From assembly GCA_043807785.1 (NCBI GenBank), contig JAZDFO010000068.1, positions 1 to 44,344 on the forward strand: DNA of 44,344 nucleotides, in the 5' to 3' direction. Under the pieces are notes generated by a model that saw nothing but the letters and a program-made list of their open reading frames with translations, did not search any database and had not been told where the DNA came from. The translations under genes and the position numbers were made by a program. Each line of letters begins with the position of its first letter. Positions within the stretch are counted from its first letter, which is position 1. Of this stretch, positions 7,353 through 19,221 are shown one piece after another. This DNA comes from Candidatus Micrarchaeota archaeon. Lineage in GTDB: Archaea; Micrarchaeota; Micrarchaeia; Norongarragalinales; SBBD01.

Positions 7353-7838
7353 CTAGTTGGCGGGGCAGGCGCACTGGCTGGCGTTAATGCCTATCTTTTC
7401 TGAAAATTCTTTGGCGGTCCATGCGTTGTTCTTCATCCCTTCGCAGACTCCGATTTGCGAAAAGCAGTCTGGGCTCTCCTTGCGGATGCACTGTCCAGAG
7501 CTGCAGGCGGCAGAATACGTCTTGAAGGACATCGCGCACGATACTGAACAGGTTCTTAGTCTAGTAACTCCGCTCGGTTTGTTCTTCTCGGATTCCTGCC
7601 ATTCCCGAAATCTTTCTTCCGTCTCTGTGTTGACCAAAACCCCTGGGCCGCAGGAATCCGTGCACGAGTCAAAATGTACGAATACGCAATCCGTATCGAC
7701 TTGACAGGATGCATCCCTTTCTCCGTGAAAAACTCCGTCTTCGAGCGGTGCCTGCTGCTTGGGCTGCGTTAGGGCGAATGCCGTGATGGCGAGAATTATT
7801 GCAGCAACCGCAATCCCGATGGCCAGCTTTTTGTCCAT
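7353..7838 (-). CDS. Cys-rich membrane-anchored protein, tandem paralog 1
   Basis: Track ORF 7353..7844 starts at TTG; the ATG at 7838 gives MDKKLAIGIAVAAIILAITAF (N-terminal TM). About 15 Cys. Shares the pattern D..C..D.DC...SCGPG...GQC...VCE...QC.C with the next gene. Confidence 0.6.
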   Translation of the reverse strand: MDKKLAIGIAVAAIILAITAFALTQPKQQAPLEDGVFHGERDASCQVDTDCVFVHFDSCTDSCGPGVLVNTETEERFREWQESEKNKPSGVTRLRTCSVSCAMSFKTYSAACSSGQCIRKESPDCFSQIGVCEGMKNNAWTAKEFSEKIGINASQCACPAN

Positions 7839-7844
7839 GCACAA

Positions 7845-7873
7845 GCCTTCGGCTGGGGTTGTATAAAAATCAG
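7845..7873 (-). promoter_or_regulatory. Conserved promoter block with TATA box (copy 1)
   Basis: The minus strand reads CTGATTTTTATACAACCCCAGCCGAAGGC. It is identical over 29 nt to 8408..8436 and ends 6 nt before the ATG, which is leaderless geometry. Confidence 0.55.
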
Positions 7874-7922
7874 CGTGTTGCGTGGAAAAAAGAGGGAAGA
7901 AAAAATCTCGTCGGGTGGCGAA

Positions 7923-8402
7923 CTAGGTAAGGGAGCAGTTGCATTGGGTCAAATCGACGTGCTCGGGATTGTAGAGCTGTTCAATTGTTAAGTTGGACAA
8001 TTTCAGTGCTTCGCAGACCCCGCCATAACCGTAGCATGCGATTCCATCGTCCTTTGCAGTGCACTGTCCTTGCTCGCAAACTGCCTTGTACTTCTTGAGC
8101 CTTACTCCGCAGGCAGCACAGCCGGTATTTCGTGCCCGTTTGCTCTGCATATAAGCATTTGATATCTCGTCATACGTTTTTTGGTTCATCGGCGTGCCGG
8201 GGCCACTGCAGCTTCCGCAAATGGTGAGCCCCCTTAATTCACAATCCGAATCTTCAATGCAAGCCGCATCTATTTTTCCGCTGTATATGCCGGTCTCAAA
8301 CCTGTCCTGGCCGAAATAGAGCTGGCCTCTAAACCATAATACTCCGACGATGTATAAAATCACGACCGCAAATGCGCCGCCAGCGACAAGCTTCCAATTC
8401 AT
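7923..8402 (-). CDS. Cys-rich membrane-anchored protein, tandem paralog 2
   Basis: 159 aa. N-terminal TM GGAFAVVILYIVGVLWF. The Cys pattern is conserved with 7353..7838. Confidence 0.6.
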   Translation of the reverse strand: MNWKLVAGGAFAVVILYIVGVLWFRGQLYFGQDRFETGIYSGKIDAACIEDSDCELRGLTICGSCSGPGTPMNQKTYDEISNAYMQSKRARNTGCAACGVRLKKYKAVCEQGQCTAKDDGIACYGYGGVCEALKLSNLTIEQLYNPEHVDLTQCNCSLT

Positions 8403-8407
8403 GTCAT

Positions 8408-8436
8408 GCCTTCGGCTGGGGTTGTATAAAAATCAG
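8408..8436 (-). promoter_or_regulatory. Conserved promoter block with TATA box (copy 2)
   Basis: Identical 29-mer to 7845..7873, ending 5 nt upstream of the ATG at 8402. Confidence 0.55.
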
Positions 8437-8518
8437 TTCGTTGCCCGTCTTGGGCGCTTAAAAAAAAGAAATAAATAAAAAAAGGAGGAGAACAGGCCGT
8501 GTAAGCAGTTTTGCTTGC

Positions 8519-8905
8519 TTACTGCGTCTGTTCGTCTGCGTCGCCTTCGGAGGCGCCGGCCGGCACTTCGGATTCCTCCGTGGTGCTCGCTGCGCCAGTG
8601 CTGGCGCCGCTTCCGACTACCTCGCCGATGGCGAAGCGGTTCCTTACCTGCGAGATGCGCACGCGGAGCTTGTCTCCCTTGTGCGCGCCTGCGACGAAGA
8701 TTATGAATCCTTCGACCTTGCCGATTCCGTCGCCTTTCTTGGCGACATCGGTGATCTCAAGGTCGTATTCCTCGCCTTGCTTGACCGGCACTTCGCGCCC
8801 CATCCCTCCGTCGTTGTAGGATGGCCTGCCGCCGCTGCTTCCGCCGCTGCGTCCGCCGCCGTATCCGCCGTCGCTACCACCGTAGCCTCTGTCCCTAAAA
8901 CCCAT
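8519..8905 (-). CDS. TRAM-domain protein with Gly/Ser/Tyr/Arg-rich N-terminal tail and acidic C-terminal tail
   Basis: Core PVKQGEEYDLEITDVAKKGDGIGKVEGFIIFVAGAHKGDKLRVRISQVRNRFAIGEVV matches small archaeal TRAM proteins. The N-terminus is MGFRDRGYGGSDGGYGGGRSGGSSGGRPSY. Confidence 0.8.
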   Translation of the reverse strand: MGFRDRGYGGSDGGYGGGRSGGSSGGRPSYNDGGMGREVPVKQGEEYDLEITDVAKKGDGIGKVEGFIIFVAGAHKGDKLRVRISQVRNRFAIGEVVGSGASTGAASTTEESEVPAGASEGDADEQTQ

Positions 8906-9095
8906 TCATTTCACCTAATTCATCCTGCCTGCACGGGGGTGTTGCACTTGGCGTAAAAATCCTCAAAGAATTAGACGGTTCGTCACAATCCCTTTCAAAA
9001 TACGCTAGTCGCCCCCACACAGTTCAGGGCATACTCTAATTTGGCGAGTGCAAGTTTAAAAAGGCGCGGTTTGAGCTTTCGCCAATGCCCGCACT

Positions 9096-9476
9096 TTAAG
9101 CATTATTGGCTGGAGCTTGGGCATCTTGTTTGGCTTCTGCCTGCGCTTGGGCCGGTGCCGCTGCTGCCTTTGCCGCAGCCTTTGCATCCTCGGCCTTCTT
9201 TGCCTCAATCTTGCGGGCTTTCGACGAGAGGTGCTTCTTTTTCGGTTCCGCAGGCTTTGCCGCTTCCTTGGGCTTTTCGACTGCGATTTCCACTTTGGCT
9301 TTCTTTGCCGAGGTTGCGAACCTTTCGGTCCACTTGAGCTTGCGCGGGTTGCGGCCCATGTTGTAGTTGCGCTCGCACTTGTGCGAACAGTAGTGCAGTG
9401 CCGTGCCGTCGCGTTTGTAGAGCGTTACCCCCAATCCGGGGCGCATTACGGTGCCGCAAAAGCTGCAGTTCGACAT
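9096..9476 (-). CDS. rpl24e: 50S ribosomal protein L24e with a long Lys/Ala-rich C-terminal extension
   Basis: MSNCSFCGTVMRPGLGVTLYKRDGTALHYCSHKCERNYNMGRNPRKLKWT zinc-ribbon core, followed by about 65 aa of K/A/E/P/Q-rich tail. Confidence 0.9.
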   Translation of the reverse strand: MSNCSFCGTVMRPGLGVTLYKRDGTALHYCSHKCERNYNMGRNPRKLKWTERFATSAKKAKVEIAVEKPKEAAKPAEPKKKHLSSKARKIEAKKAEDAKAAAKAAAAPAQAQAEAKQDAQAPANNA

Positions 9477-9487
9477 TTGGTTTCACT

Positions 9488-9799
9488 CTAGAATAGTTTC
9501 TTCTTGGCCTTCTTTTTCTTGATGGGCTTGGCCTCGCGCTCGGTGTCGGGGAGCATGAGGTGGTCCGTTATGCGAACCGGCCCCTTGACGTTGCGGCGGA
9601 TGACGCGGCCCTTGTCGCGGCCTTCGAGAATCCTTGCCATGACCTGCGTGATTTCGCCAAACACCCCGGTCCGGCCGGCGATTTCCACGACTTCAGCGAG
9701 ATAGCCGGTCTGGTCGGGCTTGACGTACTCGTCTTTCTTGTCCTGCGGCGCGTTTGCCACCGGCAGCTTGTTTATCTTGGTGCCCTTGACTGCTCCCAT
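9488..9799 (-). CDS. rps28e: 30S ribosomal protein S28e with an N-terminal extension and Lys-rich C-terminus
   Basis: Core [49 protein letters not shown]. 103 aa in total. Tail [13 protein letters not shown]. Confidence 0.9.
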
Positions 9800-9820
9800 C
9801 AGAGATTCACTTTAGGAAAT

Positions 9821-10414
9821 TTACGCCTTGGCCTCCTGCGCCTTTGCTGCAACAGGCTGTTGTGCCGCCTTCTCGGCAGGCTTTTCTACCGCCTTCTCTT
9901 GCGCCTTTTCGGCCGGCTTGTCCTCCTTCTTTTCTGCCGGCTTGTCCTTCTTGGGCTTGGCTGCCTTGTCTGCAGCAGCCTTGTCGGCCTTCTTCTTCTC
10001 CTTGGCTTCCTTGACGGTCGCCGGCCGGTCCTCGGTCTTGAACTCGTACTTTGCGGCCATCTTGGAAGCGATGTCCTTGATGGTCTGCTCGTTTGCGGCG
10101 TTGCCTGCCTTGGTCACGGCAATCGCGCTCGAGCCCACGTTGAGCCCTGCTGCCTTGCCCAGGCTGACCTTGCTGGAAACGTAAACATACGGGACCTTCT
10201 TTTCAGAGCACAGCTGGGGGAGGTGCATGACGATTTCGGGCGGGTCGACGTCTTCTGCGATGACCACCAGGGATGCTTCGCCGCGCTCGACTGCCTTGGT
10301 GCACTCGTTGGTGCCCTTGCGAACGCCGTTGGCGGCGCGCGCGGCCTCGATTGCCTCGAGGGCCTTCTTCTGCACGTCTGCAGGAGTCTCAAACTTGACG
10401 TGTATGGATGCCAT
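9821..10414 (-). CDS. rpl7ae: 50S ribosomal protein L7Ae with a ~75-aa Lys/Ala/Glu/Pro-rich C-terminal extension
   Basis: Core VRKGTNECTKAVERGEASLVVIAEDVDPPEIVMHLPQLCSEKKVPYVYVSSKVSLGKAAG. The tail contains KPAEK-type repeats. First gene of the conserved L7Ae-S28e-L24e order. Confidence 0.92.
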   Translation of the reverse strand: MASIHVKFETPADVQKKALEAIEAARAANGVRKGTNECTKAVERGEASLVVIAEDVDPPEIVMHLPQLCSEKKVPYVYVSSKVSLGKAAGLNVGSSAIAVTKAGNAANEQTIKDIASKMAAKYEFKTEDRPATVKEAKEKKKADKAAADKAAKPKKDKPAEKKEDKPAEKAQEKAVEKPAEKAAQQPVAAKAQEAKA

Positions 10415-10539: not shown

Positions 10540-10806
10540 GTGGTTTTGATGGTTCTCTCGGATATCACGGAAATTCTTGGTATAGCGTCCCTTAACTTGA
10601 TTCCCAACCCCAAAAATCCACACCTCTGCAGATATTGCATTCCCGGCATACTCGCGGCTTTATTTGCCTTAATGTTTTTAGCTGGATTGTTTTCAAGCGG
10701 TCCCTCCAGTTTGACGGGAATATTCTTCATTCTCATGCTTGTGATGCTCGTGCTTACCGCTGCCGTTAGGAACAAGCACATAACGAAGCCGGTTAATCGC
10801 CGCTAG
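10540..10806 (+). CDS. Possible small two-TM membrane protein
   Basis: 88-aa ORF with two hydrophobic segments (GILAALFALMFLAGLF, GIFFILMLVMLVLTAAV). No homology recognised. Confidence 0.3.
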   Translation: MVLMVLSDITEILGIASLNLIPNPKNPHLCRYCIPGILAALFALMFLAGLFSSGPSSLTGIFFILMLVMLVLTAAVRNKHITKPVNRR

Positions 10807-10896
10807 GTTTTGGGCGCGTCCTTGAGCATCTCCTTGACCTGGTCGACGGTGACGAATTCCAGGGGGTTGATGCTGTTGAGCACGTAGCGCATCTCC
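10803..10896 (-). pseudogene. 3' remnant of a paralog of the coiled-coil gene at 12471..12845
   Basis: The minus strand encodes ...EMRYVLNSINPLEFVTVDQVKEMLKDAPKT*. The 45-nt stretch 10852..10896 is identical to 12523..12567. No matching upstream coding part is present. Confidence 0.5.
10836..10896. repeat. Dispersed repeat copy A (61 nt; 45-nt identical core)
   Basis: GACCTGGTCgACgGTgACGAATTCCAGGGGGTTGATGCTGTTGAGCACGTAGCGCATCTCC matches 12507..12567. Confidence 0.85.
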
Positions 10897-10909
10897 CGTA
10901 TCCGCTTCC

Positions 10910-12189: not shown

Positions 12190-12474
12190 TCAATTCACAG
12201 CTATAATATAGCCAAAGAGTATTGCGATGAATATTAGTCCGGCGGCCATCCCAAGCGCATATTCCTTGAACGGAAGCGGGTTGTTTGGCCATGCCTTGTA
12301 TGCCCCCAACCCGACGATGAACACGATTCCAAAAGAGGCGAGAAACGAGCCGCCTGTCGCCGCAAGCATATATCCAGCCCCTGGCAATACGGTCAATAAG
12401 AAGTGAAACAGGATAAAAACCGCAGCGCCCAATGCAAATGCGTTCAATTTGATTGAGGGGCTCATTGTGGTCAC
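12190..12474 (-). CDS. Small integral membrane protein (3 predicted TM helices)
   Basis: 94 aa, hydrophobic throughout. The GTG start overlaps the upstream stop (GTGA). An alternative ATG lies at 12465. Confidence 0.5.
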   Translation of the reverse strand: MTTMSPSIKLNAFALGAAVFILFHFLLTVLPGAGYMLAATGGSFLASFGIVFIVGLGAYKAWPNNPLPFKEYALGMAAGLIFIAILFGYIIAVN

Positions 12475-12845
12475 TTGGGCGGCTCCTTGTCCTTTATCAT
12501 CTCGCGGACCTGGTCTACTGTCACGAATTCCAGGGGGTTGATGCTGTTGAGCACGTAGCGCATCTCCTGGATTTGCTTGCGCAAGTCCTCGAGTTCGGAC
12601 TTGATGGCGGTCGAGTCCGCGGAAGGCGCGCTGGAAGCCGCAGAAGGGGAAGCAGCTGCCCCGCCAGTCCCGCGCGACTCGATTGCCCTGATTTTCTCGT
12701 TCTGCATGACTATGGTCTGGCCGAGGACCTCCTGGTTGTTCTCTATCGTCTTGATCTTCTGCGCAATCAGGCTGATTTTCGAGTCGATTGTCGCAATGTC
12801 GGTTTTCAGCGAGTCGAGCGTCTTGAGCGGCTTTTCAGGCGGCAT
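12471..12845 (-). CDS. Coiled-coil protein of unknown function
   Basis: Track ORF 12471..13085. The ATG at 12845 (MPPEKPLKTLDSLKTDIATIDSKISLIAQKIKTIENNQ) avoids overlap with nac. Heptad-like sequence with an Ala/Ser-rich linker. Confidence 0.55.
   Translation of the reverse strand: MPPEKPLKTLDSLKTDIATIDSKISLIAQKIKTIENNQEVLGQTIVMQNEKIRAIESRGTGGAAASPSAASSAPSADSTAIKSELEDLRKQIQEMRYVLNSINPLEFVTVDQVREMIKDKEPPK
12507..12567. repeat. Dispersed repeat copy B (inside the intact coiled-coil gene)
   Basis: Matches 10836..10896. Confidence 0.85.
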
Positions 12846-12911
12846 AACGGAATAAAAAGGCGGGCGGCTTATAATACTAACTGTTTTCTCCCCATAGAGG
12901 TGGGCTTTTTC

Positions 12912-13301
12912 ATGTTCCCGAAAATGAACCCCAAGCAAATGGCGCAGATGATGCGCCAAATGGGCATTTCCAGCGACGAAATCCCGGCCGAAAAAGTCGT
13001 CATACACAAAAAGGACGGCTCGAAGCTCGAAATCACCAGCCCATCCGTCATGGCCATGGCAATGGGCGGCCAGACGACTTACCAAATCAGCGGCGAGGCA
13101 AAGGAATCCGGCGGCGAGCCAACAGATTCAACGGAATCTCAAGAACCGCTTGACAATTCATCCGCCCAATCCGACTCTCTTGAAGACGACGTCAAGCTTG
13201 TCATGGAACAGGCGAAAGTCTCGCGCGAAACCGCAGCTGCCGCCCTCAAGCGCGCCAACGGAAACATCGCCTCTGCAATCGTCGACGCGCGCGGGGAGTG
13301 A
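12912..13301 (+). CDS. nac: Nascent polypeptide-associated complex protein (NAC + UBA)
   Basis: Track ORF 12453..13301. The ATG at 12912 gives MFPKMNPKQMAQMMRQMGISSDEIPAEKVVI, and the C-terminal UBA-like segment is DDVKLVMEQAKVSRETAAAALKRANGNIASAI. An alternative ATG lies at 12924. Confidence 0.85.
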   Translation: MFPKMNPKQMAQMMRQMGISSDEIPAEKVVIHKKDGSKLEITSPSVMAMAMGGQTTYQISGEAKESGGEPTDSTESQEPLDNSSAQSDSLEDDVKLVMEQAKVSRETAAAALKRANGNIASAIVDARGE

Positions 13302-15105: not shown

Positions 15106-15294
15106 ATGGAAAATCGCTCGCAGGGCTCCCTGGAATACATCATGCTCTTAGGCGGCATCCTCCTCATCGTCACCCTCTCGATAGTCATCATCCGCGGAGG
15201 CGTCCTGCCGCAAGCCCAGCACACCATCGACACCAACTACCACGACTACGTCACCATAACCAACACCAGCAACTGCACGCTGGCAGGATGCTGA
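15106..15294 (+). CDS. Small archaeal type IV pilin-like protein (class III signal peptide)
   Basis: MENRSQGSLEYIMLLGGILLIVTLSIVII. 62 aa. The last 18 codons lie in direct repeat DR1. Confidence 0.65.
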   Translation: MENRSQGSLEYIMLLGGILLIVTLSIVIIRGGVLPQAQHTIDTNYHDYVTITNTSNCTLAGC

Positions 15295-15295
15295 C
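15239..15295 (+). repeat. 57-nt direct repeat DR1 (3' end of the pilin gene)
   Basis: ACCACGACTaCGTCaCCATAACCAACACCAGCAACTGCACGCTGGCAGGATGCTGAC matches 16646..16702 at 55 of 57 positions. Confidence 0.9.
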
Positions 15296-15322
15296 CTAAT
15301 GAACCGCACTGCTGACCTAATG
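15289..15322 (+). repeat. Local tandem duplication: 13-mer TGCTGACCTAATG twice with an 8-nt spacer
   Basis: Copies at 15289..15301 and 15310..15322, at the right edge of DR1. Confidence 0.8.
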
Positions 15323-15379
15323 TAAAGCCTGCAACCATGGTTTGCAAAGTTTTATAAAGATGTCAAACTATAGTTTGGT

Positions 15380-16666
15380 ATGCCTGAAAAAGAGCAGCTT
15401 GTGAAAGTAATCGACTTCTGGAAAGCCACCGTTACCAGGGAGCGGCTTTTCGAGCGCGAGCTTGCCAGCGGACTTGACGCCGCAACCAAGGAGGTCGTGG
15501 ATTTGGTTGGCGTGCGCAGGTGTGGGAAATCGTCGATTTTCAAGCTGCTCATCCGGCGCCTCGGCCTGGAGGACAAGGCGTTATTCGTCAATTTTGAAGA
15601 CCCTTATTTCATAGTGCATAATTCCCCCGCGGTCATCGAGGAATTGATTGAGACATACCGCGAATACTACTATTCCGGCTTGGAGTACCTGTTCTTCGAT
15701 GAAATCCAGGCCATATCCGGATGGGAAAAAGCAGTCCGCAAACTCCGCGACTCAGGCGAGTACAGGATATTCGTCACCGGCTCGTCTTCAAAGCTATTGA
15801 GCGGCGAGTTTTCAACCCTCCTTACCGGCAGGCACCTCTCCCATGCCGCGTTCCCCCTGTCATTCCGGGAGTTCCTCGCATTCAAGGGCGTGCAAGCCAC
15901 CGGCAAACGCGACCTGGCGCTCAAAAGCACTGCACTCCTAAAGGCATTTTCCGAGTATCTTGAAAACGGCGGCTTCCCGGAAGTCGTGGTGACCGGCAAC
16001 AAAACCCTCCTCCAGCAGTATTTCAAGGACATCGTCTACAAAGACATCGCAGGCAGGCACGAAGTCCGGCAGACCGACGTGCTGGAAAAGCTCGGCGTGT
16101 TCCTCGTCACGAACTCGGCGCGCACGCTCTCCGCCGGCTCGGTAAGCAAGGCCTTCGGCATCTCGCACGAGTTCGCCTCGTTATACCTGGAATACTTCAA
16201 GGAGGCATTCCTCGTATTCGACCTGCCGCAGTTTTCGTATTCTCTGAAAACCCAGGCCAAAGCCCTCAAGAAATACTATTCAGTCGACACCGGGCTGGCC
16301 AACGCCGTATCCTTCCGGTTCTCGGAAGACAAGGGCCGCATGCTCGAGCAAAGCGTCTTTTTGCACCTTGCGCGCACCGGCGCCGACGCCTACTACTACA
16401 AGACGCGCGCAAACCAGGAAATCGACTTCCTCGTAAAAACGCGCCAAAACCACCGGCAGCTCATCCAAGTCTCCTGGAGCCTGCAAGACACCGATACCCG
16501 CAAGCGCGAGCTCGCCGCCCTCTTTCGGGCAATGGACGAGCTGCGAGCCAAGACCGCGCTCGTTTTGACCTACGACGAGCAAGAAACCATTTCACAAGCC
16601 GGCAAAACCATTACAGTGGCGCCCGCATGGAAATGGATGCTGGAAACCACGACTGCGTCGCCATAA
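15380..16666 (+). CDS. AAA+ ATPase of the archaeal AAA_14/DUF4143 type
   Basis: 428 aa. Walker A GVRRCGKSS, Walker B-like YLFFDEIQ, and the C-terminal DUF4143-like part ending APAWKWML. The 3' end runs into DR2. Confidence 0.85.
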   Translation: MPEKEQLVKVIDFWKATVTRERLFERELASGLDAATKEVVDLVGVRRCGKSSIFKLLIRRLGLEDKALFVNFEDPYFIVHNSPAVIEELIETYREYYYSGLEYLFFDEIQAISGWEKAVRKLRDSGEYRIFVTGSSSKLLSGEFSTLLTGRHLSHAAFPLSFREFLAFKGVQATGKRDLALKSTALLKAFSEYLENGGFPEVVVTGNKTLLQQYFKDIVYKDIAGRHEVRQTDVLEKLGVFLVTNSARTLSAGSVSKAFGISHEFASLYLEYFKEAFLVFDLPQFSYSLKTQAKALKKYYSVDTGLANAVSFRFSEDKGRMLEQSVFLHLARTGADAYYYKTRANQEIDFLVKTRQNHRQLIQVSWSLQDTDTRKRELAALFRAMDELRAKTALVLTYDEQETISQAGKTITVAPAWKWMLETTTASP

Positions 16667-16702
16667 CCAACACCAGCAACTGCACGCTGGCAGGATGCTG
16701 AC
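16646..16702 (+). repeat. 57-nt direct repeat DR2
   Basis: Second copy of the pilin 3' end. It still reads HDCVAITNTSNCTLAGC* in the pilin frame. Confidence 0.9.
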
Positions 16703-16885
16703 TTATCTATTCGCCTTGACCAAACGGAACCGCGCCTGCGAAAATGTTTGTAGCAATAACCTGCATTATACTAACCCTGGTTATTGCATGAATGTCGAAG
16801 GACGCATGCTGCTGTTGGCGCCCGACAAGCGCCGCGTTGCCTTCAAAACCAGGGAGATTGAAGTAGTGGACATCTGCGACTTCCT

Positions 16886-17040
16886 ATGAGTTTGGCACGC
16901 CTGAAAAAAGCAGCTTGCAAAAGCCGCTGTCTTTTGGAAAAGGCGTGGTTTCCCCGAGAGCCGCATTTCCCTGTTGCGCCACAGAAAGGCTTTTAAATGC
17001 CGAGTGGATTGTTTTTTCCGCCGGCAAGAAAATGCCGGGC
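16886..17040 (+). pseudogene. Decayed 5' remnant of a second DUF4143-type ATPase gene
   Basis: TATGAGTTTGGCACGCCTGAAAAAAGCAGCTTG aligns with TATAGTTTGGTATGCCTGAAAAAGAGCAGCTTG at 15369..15401. ATG has become ACG, there is a 1-nt indel, and similarity fades over about 150 nt. Confidence 0.4.
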
Positions 17041-17080: not shown

Positions 17081-17350
17081 ATGAAACTGTTTAAGGAAAG
17101 AAAAGCGCAGGGCGCGTTTGAATACATCCTGCTATTGGCGGGAGTACTGCTAATCGTCGTACTCGCAATCATCATCCTAAGAGGTTCCGTGCTCGCAAGC
17201 GCAAACAACAACATTCAGTCGGGAATGAGGTCAGTTGGAAACGCAAGTGCTGGCTGCAATGTTACTCAGCAGGTTTGGAACAACGGTTCCGGCGTATTCT
17301 GCTGTAACATTCTTGACAATATTAATTGTCAGGTAATACCTATAGCTTAG
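17081..17350 (+). CDS. Archaeal type IV pilin-like protein (class III signal peptide)
   Basis: Track ORF 16997..17350. The ATG at 17081 gives MKLFKERKAQGAFEYILLLAGVLLIVVLAIIIL. Confidence 0.7.
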   Translation: MKLFKERKAQGAFEYILLLAGVLLIVVLAIIILRGSVLASANNNIQSGMRSVGNASAGCNVTQQVWNNGSGVFCCNILDNINCQVIPIA

Positions 17351-17556: not shown

Positions 17557-18315
17557 TCAGAGGCCTTCTTTTTTCAGGCGGTTTAGGACTTTGCCAAAAA
17601 CCAATTCGAAGTCTGGAACTCGCCTTAGGAATTGGCGGAGGTCTTCATCCCACTTGGCCTTGAAGTTTGGCAGCCGTAAGCTCAACCCCGGCAAGTCCGG
17701 TTTTTCATGATAGTAGTCGAGTTTCTTGAGGATTAGGGCCGGGTCCAGGCGCACGTTGTTTTCGAGCAGGAACCAAACGTCGTACAAGTCACGGGCGGCA
17801 GTGCGGGAAAACACTGCGTGGACTTTTTCGGCAAGGATTTCCTCTAACGCGAGGACCCGCAAGGGAAAGCCGCCGAGTTCATAGGCGTCAACTACCTGCT
17901 TTTCAACCGGCTGTAAAAACGCGTTTTCCCTTAAACTGAAGTCGAAACGCACGCGCTGCGGCTGCTGGAGAAAGGAATTGAATTTAAGGAATACTCGGAG
18001 CCCCTCGCTGGTTTTCTCGTGCTTGGTTGCGGTAAACCGGATTCCGTGCAGTTCCTTGCCTTCGAAAAGGCCCTGGATTTCAGACCGCGCCTTGGCTTGC
18101 GTGATTGCCGGAGCGTTGAAGTCGAGGTCTTCCGAAAAACGCGCCTGCGGAAAATAAATTTTCTTGATGGCGGTCCCGCCCTTGAACACGAGGCCGGCGC
18201 AAAGCGGGGATTGCGACAGCACGGAGAGGACAACGGAAAGCGCGTAGTCCTTCTCGACGATGGCCTGCGGAATCCCCTCGCGCGCGGCCATTCTCTTGAG
18301 TTGCGCCAAGTCCAT
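17557..18315 (-). CDS. abiEii: Nucleotidyltransferase toxin, AbiEii/AbiGii family
   Basis: 252 aa. VFKGGTAIKKIYFPQARFSEDLDF is the hallmark motif. Starts 3 nt after the AbiEi-like gene. Confidence 0.85.
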   Translation of the reverse strand: MDLAQLKRMAAREGIPQAIVEKDYALSVVLSVLSQSPLCAGLVFKGGTAIKKIYFPQARFSEDLDFNAPAITQAKARSEIQGLFEGKELHGIRFTATKHEKTSEGLRVFLKFNSFLQQPQRVRFDFSLRENAFLQPVEKQVVDAYELGGFPLRVLALEEILAEKVHAVFSRTAARDLYDVWFLLENNVRLDPALILKKLDYYHEKPDLPGLSLRLPNFKAKWDEDLRQFLRRVPDFELVFGKVLNRLKKEGL

Positions 18316-18318
18316 CGT

Positions 18319-19128
18319 TTAATATCCCTGCCTGAAGTTGAGAAGCTGCTTTTCTTCGAGGTTCAATTTTAACCCCCACTTTTTGCTGTATTTGATGGTG
18401 TGCTTGGGGCCGGAGGGGTCGAGCCAGCGAAAGCCTTGAAACGAGCCTTCCAGTTGCTTGGCATGCCTTTTGAAGCCCATGAGTTCGAGAATGTAGCCGA
18501 GGCGCCGGCGGACGACGTGCTTTTCTGCTTTTGCCAGCGAAACGAGCTTGCCCCAGTCCAGTTCACTGGCGGCGGAGTGAATGGCTTCGGGGGCTGCCGA
18601 GACGCCCAGGCAGTATTGGGGCAAGCGCAGGCAGTCGATTATCGTCTGCTCGCGGGTGGAGACGTTGACTTCGGTACCGCCGAGTTTAACTTGCGTGAAT
18701 TCCCCTAGTTCGCGTTTTTTCACGAAAACGAAGGTGGTCTGCACCGCCTTGACGCTCTTCTTCTGGCGGTTTAGGGCCACGAAGACGGTCATGGGAATTT
18801 GCGTGGTCATCCCCCAATGGTTCAACGCGGACAAAAAGCCAATGTAGTAGTTCTTGGTGTTCGCGAGCGCGGGGGCGACTAGGAAGGAATGCTCCGACCA
18901 TTCGCCTTTGGGCCCGCTTTTTAGGGGAGCGAACAGGTAAGAGCCTTTCTGCAGGCGGATGACGCGGTTCTTTTTCGCCAGCCGCGAAAGCACGTTCTTC
19001 ACGGAGGCGGCAGTGCCTTTCAGAATCCTTTTCGCATCCTTGAACGAAAACAGCCCGTTGTTGCGCTCCTCCAATGCGAACAGGAGGGCAAGCTCCCTCT
19101 CCCCAAAACGCATTTTAGGTATAACCAT
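18319..19128 (-). CDS. abiEi: AbiEi-family antitoxin / wHTH transcriptional regulator
   Basis: Track ORF runs to 19152 (TTG start). ATG candidates are 19128 (MVIPKMRFGERE) and 19113. N-terminal wHTH: FSFKDAKRILKGTAASVKNVLSRLAKKNRVIRLQKGSYLF. Confidence 0.8.
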   Translation of the reverse strand: MVIPKMRFGERELALLFALEERNNGLFSFKDAKRILKGTAASVKNVLSRLAKKNRVIRLQKGSYLFAPLKSGPKGEWSEHSFLVAPALANTKNYYIGFLSALNHWGMTTQIPMTVFVALNRQKKSVKAVQTTFVFVKKRELGEFTQVKLGGTEVNVSTREQTIIDCLRLPQYCLGVSAAPEAIHSAASELDWGKLVSLAKAEKHVVRRRLGYILELMGFKRHAKQLEGSFQGFRWLDPSGPKHTIKYSKKWGLKLNLEEKQLLNFRQGY

Positions 19129-19147
19129 AGTATCGCTTAACGATACT
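19129..19147. promoter_or_regulatory. Perfect 7-bp inverted repeat between the TATA box and the abiEi start (candidate operator)
   Basis: AGTATCG-CTTAA-CGATACT. The TATA-like CCTTATATAC (minus strand) is at 19161..19170. Confidence 0.35.
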
Positions 19148-19221
19148 TTCAACGTTCAAAGTATATAAGGTTTTCGGCTGCCCCGGGACAGCTTGGACGT
19201 CCTCGCTTTCTTCCTCGATTC

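What the first reader, a model, noticed from the sequence alone, without database searches (positions are those of the whole stretch)
15239..16702. DUF4143-type AAA ATPase gene bracketed by 57-nt direct repeats that duplicate the 3' end of a pilin gene
The last 18 codons plus the stop of the 62-aa pilin gene (15239..15295) recur at 16646..16702 with only 2 mismatches. The second copy follows directly on the natural C-terminus of the ATPase (…APAWKWML) and still reads …ITNTSNCTLAGC* in the pilin frame. The 1350 bp between the repeats contain only the ATPase gene and its 84-nt leader. At the inner edge of DR1 the 13-mer TGCTGACCTAATG is itself duplicated (15289..15322).

There are two readings:
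- The ATPase gene was inserted as a cassette, with an unusually long target duplication or att-like site.
- A deletion collapsed a tandem array of pilin-ATPase units.

DUF4143 ATPases are notoriously multi-copy in archaeal genomes with no known reason. A repeat-flanked copy hints at mobility.
Basis: seen in the sequence. Interest (0 to 1): 0.6.

Follow-up and report, generated by a model that had tools for sequence, protein, structure and literature searches.

The report
One-gene ATPase cassette behind pilin gene
A single candidate anti-virus gene (an ATPase fused to a nuclease-like domain) was slotted in directly behind a small pilin gene of a tiny archaeon, leaving a spare copy of the pilin gene's last 57 bases. 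The same scar surrounds many other accessory genes here and in relatives, so these genes are gained as one-gene cassettes without a recombinase of their own.

Summary
15239-15295 recurs at 16646-16702 (55/57 identical, unique in the 1.18-Mb genome). The 1350 nt between the copies hold only an 84-nt leader and an AAA_14/DUF4143 ATPase (PADLOC PDC-S01).

It is an insertion, not paralogy. Three relatives (same genus and family) have pilin1 followed after 20-36 nt by the pilin2 promoter, with no ATPase and one pilin end.

It is the second insertion at this site. An 86-nt decayed start of an older, related ATPase lies at 16884-16969.

Four of 12 DUF4143 copies in this genome are bracketed in the same way, and two more empty sites were verified. 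So are about 13 other accessory-gene segments, carrying genes such as an R-M methylase, DUF3800 and PIN. The bracketed share is 7/19 in same-order relatives, and 9/61 against 8/297 shifted controls in diverse prokaryotes.

No integrase or transposase gene and no terminal inverted repeats are present.

Closest known is "insertion with long target duplication", described for restriction-modification genes in bacteria. The ATPase is probably cargo moved by host recombination.

This scan has noted the same pattern before, in this genome and around DUF4143 genes elsewhere.

The parts
15106..15294 (+). Host gene: 62-aa pilin-like protein with a class III signal peptide (pilin1). It is intact.
   Evidence: Pfam PF04021 E=6.6e-6. 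Orthologues in G001, G002 and G003 at 70-75% nt identity end in ...NTSNC(T/S)L..C*.
15239..15295 (+). DR1: the copy of the pilin 3' end that lies inside the intact pilin gene.
   Evidence: 55/57 identical to 16646-16702 and unique in the genome.
15289..15322 (+). Left-junction stutter: the 13-mer TGCTGACCTAATG (last pilin codon, stop, 7 nt) occurs twice, separated by 8 nt.
   Evidence: Exact matches at 15289 and 15310 only. Reading it as a templated-repair or earlier-insertion footprint is inference.
15296..15379 (+). Cassette leader: TATA-like box TTTATAAA (15351-15358) and perfect palindrome CAAACTATAGTTTG (15364-15377) just before the ATG.
   Evidence: Sequence. The AAACTATAGTTT motif also lies upstream of the three nearest homologues, L149-L151, at 59-62% protein identity.
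15380..16666 (+). Cargo gene: 428-aa AAA_14 + DUF4143 ATPase with a nuclease-like domain (PADLOC candidate PDC-S01). Its last 7 codons and stop are supplied by DR2.
   Evidence: Pfam AAA_14 4.6e-33 and DUF4143 6.8e-26. PADLOC PDC-S01 6.7e-113. Walker A, Walker B and E323/E347/D349/Q363 are conserved. Homologues end 2-5 codons after WMLE.
16646..16702 (+). DR2: displaced copy of the pilin 3' end, contiguous with the native downstream DNA.
   Evidence: Its right flank still shares TTCGCC with the G001 intergenic region.
16703..16883 (+). 181 nt absent from the empty sites; probably the leader of an older cassette.
   Evidence: Not present in G001, G002 or G003. Not significantly similar to the present leader (score 9 against 7.7 +/- 1.3).
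16884..16969 (+). Decayed 5' end of an older ATPase gene of the same subfamily: right half of the palindrome plus about 24 codons, start codon lost, 1-nt deletion.
   Evidence: Local alignment to 15368-15451, score 31 against shuffles 9.1 +/- 1.3 (maximum 16). tblastn finds nothing further.
16981..16998 (+). Conserved promoter box ACAGAAAGGCTTTTAAAT of pilin2. It marks where homology with the empty sites resumes.
   Evidence: 16-18 nt identical in G001 and G003, which place it 20-36 nt after the pilin1 stop.
17081..17350 (+). pilin2, the second class III signal peptide protein. It is the direct neighbour of pilin1 in relatives.
   Evidence: Pfam PF04021 E=1.6e-7. 75-79% nt identity to relatives.

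Best explanation
The segment 15296-16645 is a one-gene accessory cassette. It carries its own promoter, a palindromic operator-like site and an AAA_14/DUF4143 ATPase with a nuclease-like domain of the PDC-S01 type. It was inserted 1-4 nt after the stop codon of a pilin gene. The event left the last 57 nt of that gene on both sides, intact gene on the left and displaced copy on the right. This is 'insertion with long target duplication'.

It is the second such event at this spot. An earlier, related cassette is now reduced to about 270 nt (16703-16969).

The cassette encodes no recombinase, and the same scar surrounds unrelated accessory genes in the same genome. The ATPase is therefore most likely cargo.

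Inferred mechanism: host recombination and repair did the work. Either a staggered or resected break was filled in around incoming DNA, or (my preferred variant) a DNA piece or circle carrying 'gene end + cassette' was anchored by homologous pairing in the conserved coding end and joined illegitimately or by a single crossover at the other side. The repeats would then also allow precise loss, or excision as a circle, by repeat-by-repeat recombination.

Shown: the insertion, the duplication, the empty site, the recurrence and the lack of mobility genes. Inferred: the enzymology, the order of events and the direction of transfer.
For: Empty site at this locus:
- G001 (same genus), G002 and G003 (same family) have pilin1, then 20-36 nt, then the ACAGAAAGGCTTTTAAAT box, then pilin2. 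They carry one pilin end and no ATPase.

Foreign origin of the ATPase:
- No relative of this ATPase above 41% identity was found in 40 same-order genomes.
- The nearest proteins anywhere are 62% identical or less, and the named ones come from CPR bacteria.

Recurrence within this genome:
- 4 of 12 DUF4143 copies are bracketed by 37-155-nt repeats.
- Empty sites were verified for the C57 copy (G003) and the C4 copy (G001, G002, G005). The extra 1512-1561 nt there match the 1514-nt repeat spacing.

Recurrence elsewhere:
- 7 of 19 complete copies in same-order relatives are tightly bracketed.
- 9 of 61 are bracketed in diverse prokaryotes, against 8 of 297 shifted controls (Fisher p=5.5e-4).

Not specific to the ATPase:
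- About 13 further bracketed segments carry RelA_SpoT, PIN_3, SLFN_AlbA_2, DUF3800 (twice), ATPase_2/DUF234, an N6_N4 methylase with a neighbouring ORF, an unassigned two-gene pair, and a HicB-like gene (family read from its sequence only).

No mobility machinery:
- The only Phage_integrase hit in the genome is on another contig.
- No inverted repeat joins the two cassette ends.

Homology-anchored variant:
- The inner repeat edge lies within 4 nt of the host stop codon in 6 of about 9 cases.
- In seven cases with hand-checked host frames, differences between the two copies fall 12/8/28 on codon positions 1/2/3. Some copy pairs therefore diverged while both were coding.

Literature:
- The same kind of event is described for R-M genes (PMC2853133).
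Against: - Excision products, circles and strain polymorphism are therefore untested.
- No strain-level variant was found in the metagenome or exact-protein look-ups.
- This repeat's own two differences are both non-synonymous in the pilin frame. That fits neutral decay of a local duplication as well as, or better than, a donor-borne gene end.
- DUF4143 genes are strongly over-represented among bracketed genes. The protein has a PD-(D/E)XK-like domain (PMC3424549). An active role of the protein is therefore not excluded.
- The clustering of junctions at stop and start codons has no proven explanation.
- The genome is an incomplete MAG (68.8% complete, 147 contigs), so a trans-acting recombinase could be unassembled.
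Confidence: 0.7

Rival explanations
1. The ATPase-nuclease drives its own spread, like a free-standing homing endonuclease gene that carries a replacement gene end (as in the mobile endonuclease ORFs of fungal mitochondria). It would cut the pilin gene end in cassette-free genomes. Repair would then copy 'new gene end + cassette' from a donor, pushing the old end downstream.
For: - The C-terminal DUF4143 domain belongs to the PD-(D/E)XK nuclease superfamily (PMC3424549) and gives a weak Mrr_cat hit. Its conserved acidic residues are kept.
- DUF4143 genes are the most frequent cargo of bracketed segments: 4 of 12 copies, against about 13 segments among some 1090 other ORFs.
- They are bracketed far above shifted controls in other phyla.
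- Two related cassettes entered the same site in series.
Against: - The same scar surrounds genes with no nuclease, such as RelA_SpoT, DUF3800 and a HicB-like gene.
- Each DUF4143 copy sits in a different, unrelated target: a pilin end, the start of a gene read from its sequence as mevalonate diphosphate decarboxylase, a gene end read as aminoacyl-tRNA synthetase, and so on. No common recognition site exists.
- None of three relatives carries the cassette at this site, and no close homologue exists in 40 relatives.
Confidence: 0.12
2. Site-specific integration by a tyrosine recombinase acting in trans. The 57-nt repeats would be attL and attR of an integrase-less, cis-mobilisable element.
For: - The direct repeats lie at the 3' end of a gene, and the empty site holds one copy, which is the classical att picture.
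- The genome has one tyrosine recombinase (C28:8790-9965). It sits next to an array of five repeats that separate single accessory genes.
Against: - Every bracketed segment has a different repeat sequence, 32-155 nt long, with no shared core. The C28 repeat core does not occur at the pilin site.
- There is no integrase on this 44-kb contig.
- The cassette boundary cuts into the last codons of the ATPase, which is unlike a defined element end.
Confidence: 0.08
3. Simple paralogy. Either a tandem pilin-ATPase unit was duplicated in place, or there were two tandem pilin paralogues, and the structure was later eroded by deletion. The second repeat would then be a pilin pseudogene remnant.
For: - A remnant of a second ATPase start lies downstream.
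- Tandem pilin paralogues exist in G003, which has four class III genes in a row.
- Tandem DUF4143 arrays exist elsewhere (Nanobdella L070).
Against: - Three relatives lack any ATPase here.
- Within the supposed second unit, divergence is wildly uneven: the repeat is 96% identical, the ATPase start about 70-80%, and the leaders (84 against 181 nt) are not alignable.
- Pilin paralogues in G003 differ strongly at their 3' ends.
- The same scar occurs at many unrelated loci.
Confidence: 0.05

Closest known systems
Insertion with long target duplication of restriction-modification gene units (Nobusato et al. 2000, cited from memory; Furuta, Abe and Kobayashi 2010, PMC2853133)
   Same: - A short gene unit is absent from a related genome.
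- It is flanked by direct repeats longer than 30 bp and of variable length that are single-copy in the empty site and unique in the genome.
- The insert holds no integrase or transposase.
- The repeat overlaps the 3' end of the neighbouring gene, as in their H. influenzae cases.
- Gene fusion at the junction also occurs in their data.
   Different: - The cargo is a single AAA_14/DUF4143 gene, not an R-M pair.
- The host is a DPANN archaeon. In their screen no archaeal case survived selection.
- Here the scar is genome-wide, across many cargo types.
- Junctions cluster at stop and start codons, and some repeat pairs differ mainly at third codon positions.
PDC-S01, a single-gene phage-defence candidate in PADLOC (AAA_14 + DUF4143, COG1373); survey in PMC12988326
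   Same: The protein matches the PDC-S01 models over its full length (E=6.7e-113). It has the ATPase plus PD-(D/E)XK-type architecture. The paper reports the family as very abundant in Archaea, with many cross-domain transfers.
   Different: [quoted passage not shown] The flanking gene-end repeats and empty sites found here are not mentioned in them.
Homology-facilitated illegitimate recombination and 3'-end displacement arrays (Rhs, CDI, T6SS effector-immunity loci; PMC5361080)
   Same: An incoming module is anchored in a conserved coding stretch and pushes the old gene end downstream. Serial events then build strings of orphaned ends. This fits the older cassette remnant and the third-position bias in several repeat pairs.
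   Different: Those systems replace a variable toxic C-terminus together with its immunity gene. Here the host gene end is restored unchanged and the cargo is an unrelated free-standing gene with its own promoter.
Integrase-less att-flanked elements (cis-mobilisable elements) and integron cassettes
   Same: Small cargo without a recombinase, bounded by direct repeats, at a gene end. Gain and loss look precise.
   Different: There is no shared att or attC core, no integrase nearby, and the repeats are plain copies of each local target. The cassette also has its own promoter, unlike most integron cassettes.

Membership tests
Insertion with long target duplication (criteria of Furuta et al. 2010, PMC2853133) | The insert is absent from a related genome whose flanks align on both sides (an empty site). 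| tested here: met
   G001, G002 and G003 have pilin1 directly followed by the pilin2 promoter and gene.
Insertion with long target duplication (criteria of Furuta et al. 2010, PMC2853133) | A flanking direct repeat longer than 30 bp that is single-copy in the empty site. | tested here: met
   57-nt repeat, 55/57 identical. Relatives carry one pilin 3' end.
Insertion with long target duplication (criteria of Furuta et al. 2010, PMC2853133) | The repeat is not a multi-copy genomic repeat. | tested here: met
   Only these two copies exist in the 1.18-Mb assembly.
Insertion with long target duplication (criteria of Furuta et al. 2010, PMC2853133) | The insert is under 20 kb and holds no mobility genes. 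| tested here: met
   The 1350-nt insert holds one ORF, with Pfam AAA_14 and DUF4143 only. The single Phage_integrase hit is on contig C28.
Insertion with long target duplication (criteria of Furuta et al. 2010, PMC2853133) | The insert contains both R and M gene homologues. | tested here: not met
   The cargo is a DUF4143 ATPase. This is the same kind of rearrangement, but not a member of the R-M set.
PDC-S01 / COG1373 (AAA_14 + DUF4143) | Full-length match to the family models, above the Pfam cut-offs. | tested here: met
   PADLOC PDLC04787 6.7e-113 over residues 34-423. AAA_14 scores 114 bits (cut-off 27) and DUF4143 91 bits (cut-off 28.1).
PDC-S01 / COG1373 (AAA_14 + DUF4143) | Conserved Walker A, Walker B and nuclease-domain acidic residues. 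| tested here: met
   G44, K50, D107, E108, E323, E347, D349 and Q363 match columns conserved at 82% or more in 80 homologues. N324 is Q here.
PDC-S01 / COG1373 (AAA_14 + DUF4143) | Protects against viruses. | not testable with these tools
Site-specific integrative element (att sites) | An integrase in or beside the element, and a common att core among elements. | tested here: not met
   There is no integrase on the contig. All repeat pairs differ in sequence.
Transposon / insertion sequence | A transposase gene, terminal inverted repeats, and a short target duplication of fixed length. | tested here: not met
   No inverted repeat joins the ends 15296 and 16645. There is no transposase domain. 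Duplications range from 22 to 252 nt.
Free-standing homing endonuclease ORF with a replacement gene end | The same element recurs at the same target site in other lineages. | tested here: not met
   0 of 3 relatives have it at this site. The best homologue in 40 same-order genomes is 41% identical and lies elsewhere.
Free-standing homing endonuclease ORF with a replacement gene end | The encoded protein cleaves the cassette-free target. | not testable with these tools
   Only a PD-(D/E)XK-like domain is inferred.

The most novel reading that the evidence does not exclude
DUF4143/PDC-S01 genes, and other single defence-type genes, may form a widespread class of recombinase-less, one-gene mobile cassettes. 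Each would travel together with a short piece of the neighbouring host gene's end and re-enter related genomes by homologous pairing in that conserved coding end. The flanking repeats would then allow precise loss or circular excision. This would explain why the family is multi-copy, patchy and transferred across domains. It would also explain why the repeats stop at stop or start codons and often differ only at synonymous sites.
Probability: 0.3. Interest if true: 0.75.

Novelty: new member of a known kind. Interest (0 to 1): 0.5.

Why it matters
DUF4143/COG1373 (PDC-S01) is reported as the fourth most common defence candidate in prokaryotes and as especially abundant in Archaea (PMC12988326). 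How it spreads and why it is multi-copy is not addressed in what I read or found (two papers naming the family read in their relevant passages, plus five literature searches).

This locus gives a clean archaeal case:
- an empty site in three relatives;
- a 57-nt gene-end duplication;
- no recombinase;
- a second, older cassette at the same spot;
- two further verified cases in the same genome.

It extends 'insertion with long target duplication', so far documented for R-M genes in bacteria, to an archaeon and to another cargo class.

It also shows how very small, gene-dense genomes can take up accessory genes at gene ends without breaking the neighbouring genes. The mechanism is testable with simple constructs in laboratory hosts.

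Tried and rejected

2. Strain-level variants:
- A metagenome scan with the pilin protein gave one remote hit.
- Exact look-ups of the pilin and the ATPase were not on record.

3. More of the older ATPase: tblastn with this ATPase and 90 homologues found nothing significant beyond the 86-nt start. A possible C-terminal remnant...KTREIEVVDICDFL* at 16842-16889, reached only E about 0.09.

4. Homology between the two leaders: not significant. This argues against a single tandem duplication.

5. Compositional foreignness: the cassette's GC (0.50-0.585) is not distinct from its surroundings.

6. Automated choice of host reading frames for the codon-position test picked spurious open frames in this GC-rich DNA, and its totals were discarded. 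Only the hand-checked set is used.

7. Which repeat copy is ancestral: comparison with relatives is ambiguous, with one difference favouring each copy.

8. A circular contig for the nearest homologue (L149): it has only a 19-nt terminal overlap. I read that as a flanking repeat cut by the assembler, not as proof of a circle.

9. The sigma-70 and terminator scan is not informative for an archaeon.
Full report
**Observation**

The sequence was read directly and repeats were computed.
- 15239-15295 and 16646-16702 are 55/57 identical, or 57/60 to 15298/16705.
- A BLAST search of the whole 1.18-Mb, 147-contig assembly finds only these two copies, with E between 1e-18 and 4e-24.
- The left copy is the end of a 62-aa ORF, 15106-15294. 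This ORF has a class III signal peptide (PF04021), so it is an archaeal pilin-like protein.
- The 1350 nt between the copies hold an 84-nt leader and one ORF, 15380-16666 (428 aa), with AAA_14 (4.6e-33) and DUF4143 (6.8e-26) domains.
- That ORF matches the PADLOC candidate PDC-S01 at 6.7e-113.
- The right copy begins directly after ATPase codon E421 (...PAWKWMLE). The ATPase frame borrows 7 codons and its stop from the repeat. Homologues end 2-5 codons after WMLE, so the junction clipped the last native codons.
- The 13-mer TGCTGACCTAATG at 15289 and 15310 is confirmed.

**It is an insertion**

A DNA search of 40 relatives, followed by extraction and alignment, gives the same picture in G001 (same genus), G002 and G003 (same family, other genera).
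- The order is a PKD-domain pilin-like gene on the minus strand, then pilin1, then 20-36 nt, then the box ACAGAAAGGCTTTTAAAT, then pilin2.
- There is no ATPase and only one pilin1 3' end.
- In the window the same box lies at 16981-16998.

**A second, older cassette**

Compared with the empty sites, the window has 1407 nt (repeat, leader and ATPase) plus roughly 270 more (16703-16969).
- A local alignment matches 16884-16969 to 15368-15451. That stretch covers the right half of the leader palindrome, the start codon region and about 24 codons. The score is 31, against 9.1 +/- 1.3 (maximum 16) in 500 shuffles.
- The start codon is lost and one base is deleted.
- Nothing more of an ATPase is detectable.
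- The two leaders (84 and 181 nt) are not significantly alike.

The supposed second unit thus has 96%, unalignable and about 70-80% similarity in adjacent pieces. A single tandem duplication does not explain that. Two successive insertions at the same gene end do, with the older one largely deleted.

**The cassette**

- A TATA-like box (15351-15358) is followed by the perfect palindrome CAAACTATAGTTTG (15364-15377), 2 nt before the ATG (15380).
- The same AAACTATAGTTT motif lies upstream of the three nearest homologues that I could fetch (L149-L151, 59-62% protein identity). More distant subfamilies carry other paired palindromes at that position.
- I read the palindrome as an operator-like element that travels with the gene. 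This is inference.
- The protein keeps Walker A, Walker B and the conserved E323/E347/D349/Q363 of the nuclease-like domain. DUF4143 is classed in the PD-(D/E)XK superfamily (PMC3424549).
- GC content does not set the cassette apart.
- The nearest relatives in 5.8 billion proteins are 62% identical or less. Where named, they come from CPR/Patescibacteria.
- In species-representative genomes the best match is a Brocadiaceae MAG at 58%.
- None of 40 same-order genomes has a copy above 41%.

The gene is therefore a foreign acquisition. That agrees with the many cross-domain transfers reported for PDC-S01 (PMC12988326).

**Recurrence in this genome**

The genome has 12 DUF4143 matches. Four are bracketed by direct repeats.

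| Copy | Repeat | What the repeat duplicates |
|---|---|---|
| This one (C68) | 57 nt, 96% | pilin 3' end |
| C57 | 80 nt, 89% | promoter and first codons of a gene read from its sequence as diphosphomevalonate decarboxylase |
| C4 | 155 nt, 81% | 3' tail of the upstream gene |
| C115 | 37 nt, 92% | cassette also holds a small RHH-like gene |

Empty sites were verified for two of them.
- C57: G003 has the two flanking genes about 148 nt apart, against about 1560 nt here.
- C4: G001, G002 and G005 lack 1512-1561 nt, which matches the 1514-nt repeat spacing.

A self-comparison of the whole genome lists about 13 more segments of 0.4-1.9 kb bracketed by 32-111-nt repeats, most of them overlapping an end of a neighbouring open frame. 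Their cargo is:
- RelA_SpoT;
- PIN_3;
- SLFN_AlbA_2;
- DUF3800 (twice);
- ATPase_2/DUF234;
- an N6_N4 methylase with a neighbouring ORF, read as an R-M pair;
- an unassigned two-gene pair, read from sequence as nucleotidyltransferase plus wHTH, with no Pfam hit;
- a HicB-like gene, read from its sequence only.

The scar is therefore a general mode of accessory-gene gain in this lineage. DUF4143 is its most frequent passenger.

**Recurrence elsewhere**

- In same-order relatives, 7 of 19 complete DUF4143 genes with enough flank are tightly bracketed, and 2 more are bracketed loosely.
- Among 61 complete homologues from very diverse bacteria and archaea, 9 are tightly bracketed, against 8 of 297 windows shifted within the same loci (Fisher p=5.5e-4). 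One of the nine is a tandem array.
- The right repeat starts between -46 and +47 nt from the ATPase stop codon in most tight cases. Between 30 and 250 nt of promoter region lie on the left.
- This asymmetry fits a minimal 'promoter plus ORF' unit.

**Mechanism**

Nothing in or near the cassette encodes a recombinase.
- The only Phage_integrase hit is on contig C28.
- No terminal inverted repeats exist.
- Every bracketed segment has its own repeat sequence.

This excludes an ordinary transposon and makes one site-specific integrase unlikely. The picture matches 'insertion with long target duplication', described for R-M units in bacteria. Those events show long, variable, unique repeats, no mobility genes, an empty site with one copy, and often an overlap with the 3' end of the neighbouring gene. 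No archaeal case passed that screen (PMC2853133).

Two further regularities point to homology-anchored entry.
- The inner repeat edge lies within 4 nt of the host stop codon in 6 of about 9 cases in this genome. In two relatives it lies exactly at a start codon.
- In seven cases with hand-checked host frames, the differences between the two copies fall 12, 8 and 28 on codon positions 1, 2 and 3, with 21 synonymous and 19 non-synonymous codons. L124 adds 1, 0 and 7.

That is more third-position bias than I would expect from neutral decay of one copy (my rough expectation is about 44% third-position). It suggests that some copy pairs are two once-functional versions of the gene end, one brought in with the cassette. 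Homologous pairing in the conserved coding end, with an illegitimate join or a single crossover of a circular piece at the other side, would produce three observed features: repeats that stop where coding conservation stops, serial displacement of old ends, and precise loss by repeat-by-repeat recombination. The analogy is homology-facilitated illegitimate recombination and 3'-displacement arrays (PMC5361080).

For this particular repeat, the two differences are both non-synonymous in the pilin frame. A local duplication followed by decay therefore fits it equally well.

The 13-mer stutter at the left junction looks like a templated-repair footprint or the scar of yet another event. This is inference.

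**Rivals**

- An active, homing-like role of the ATPase-nuclease cannot be excluded, given its nuclease-like domain and its over-representation. Three points weigh against it: non-nuclease cargo carries the same scar, no common target exists, and the cassette is absent from this site in relatives.
- A trans-acting integrase remains possible because the MAG is only 68.8% complete.
- Simple paralogy is the least likely rival.

**Limits**

- The assignment of the organism to Micrarchaeota comes from earlier notes of this scan and from the names of paralogue-level hits. It was not tested here.

**Relation to earlier notes of this scan**

The scan had already noted gene-end insertion scars on another piece of this genome (e1-4495995, e1-4495991). 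It had also noted repeat-flanked DUF4143 cassettes in many other genomes, for example e1-1557073, e1-1311424, e1-2551930, e1-1973785 and e1-4725010. My genome-wide repeat survey and the long-target-duplication reading were reached before I read them. The PDC-S01 identity and the literature were then checked here.

**Verdict**

This is a real, well-supported instance of a known kind of rearrangement, with a new cargo class and a new host domain. It is of moderate interest on its own and of higher interest as part of the recurring DUF4143 pattern.

Noticed in passing
window 10803-10907 and 12474-12578: A 90-105-nt copy (87% identical) of the 3' end of the minus-strand gene 12471-13085 lies 1.67 kb away, next to rpl7ae. 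G001 has about 700 nt between rpl7ae and that gene, against about 2000 nt here, and it shares two internal pieces. This is a more complex gene-end duplication or insertion in the same window.
   Followed up: partly
window 16635-16642, 15286-15293, 16693-16700: The 8-mer GGATGCTG ends both the ATPase (codons WML) and the pilin gene (codons GC, then stop). Three of its four occurrences in the 44-kb window are here. It may be a microhomology that favoured this site, but it does not lie at the actual junction and remains unexplained.
   Followed up: partly
window 15364-15377; L149, L150, L151 upstream regions: The perfect palindrome CAAACTATAGTTTG just before the ATPase start is conserved upstream of the nearest homologues (59-62% identity, probably bacterial contigs), although the promoter type differs. 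Other DUF4143 subfamilies have their own paired palindromes, for example CATTACTAATG.
   Followed up: partly
own genome, contig C28:1790-9965 (outside the window): Five copies of a 60-110-nt repeat (core GGAATGCCGCTGGTGCGGGCACAGGC) lie at 1812, 3233, 5907, 6773 and 8510. They separate single accessory genes: a lipoprotein, a PIN gene, one SLFN_AlbA_2 gene with a Pfam hit and a second read as the same family from its sequence. The array ends beside the genome's only tyrosine recombinase gene (8790-9965). It looks like an integron-like or tandem-accretion array.
   Followed up: partly
window 17557-19152 (minus strand): An AbiEii/AbiEi toxin-antitoxin (defence) pair lies directly after pilin2 (Pfam and PADLOC hits). 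The ATPase cassette therefore sits at the edge of a small defence islet.
   Followed up: partly
L145 (G021:C1:8215-12429): In a same-order relative, one DUF4143 cassette is bracketed by a 40-nt repeat that is the C-terminal end (...TPLWKWLLH*) of another DUF4143 gene. A cassette appears to have been inserted into the end of a cassette.
   Followed up: no
L149 (Logan contig, 1521 nt): The contig of the closest homologue (62% identity) starts and ends with the same 19 nt. Many other close homologues sit on contigs of 1.4-1.6 kb. This fits assemblies breaking in flanking repeats of one-gene cassettes.
   Followed up: partly
relatives, table: Several DUF4143 copies in same-order genomes, and one in this genome (C52), carry a single in-frame stop codon. 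This suggests frequent decay of these genes.
   Followed up: no
window 7842-7881 and 8405-8444: A 40-nt repeat (90% identical) lies in front of two adjacent paralogous minus-strand genes (7353-7844 and 7923-8402). This is ordinary tandem paralogy with a shared promoter, not an insertion scar.
   Followed up: no
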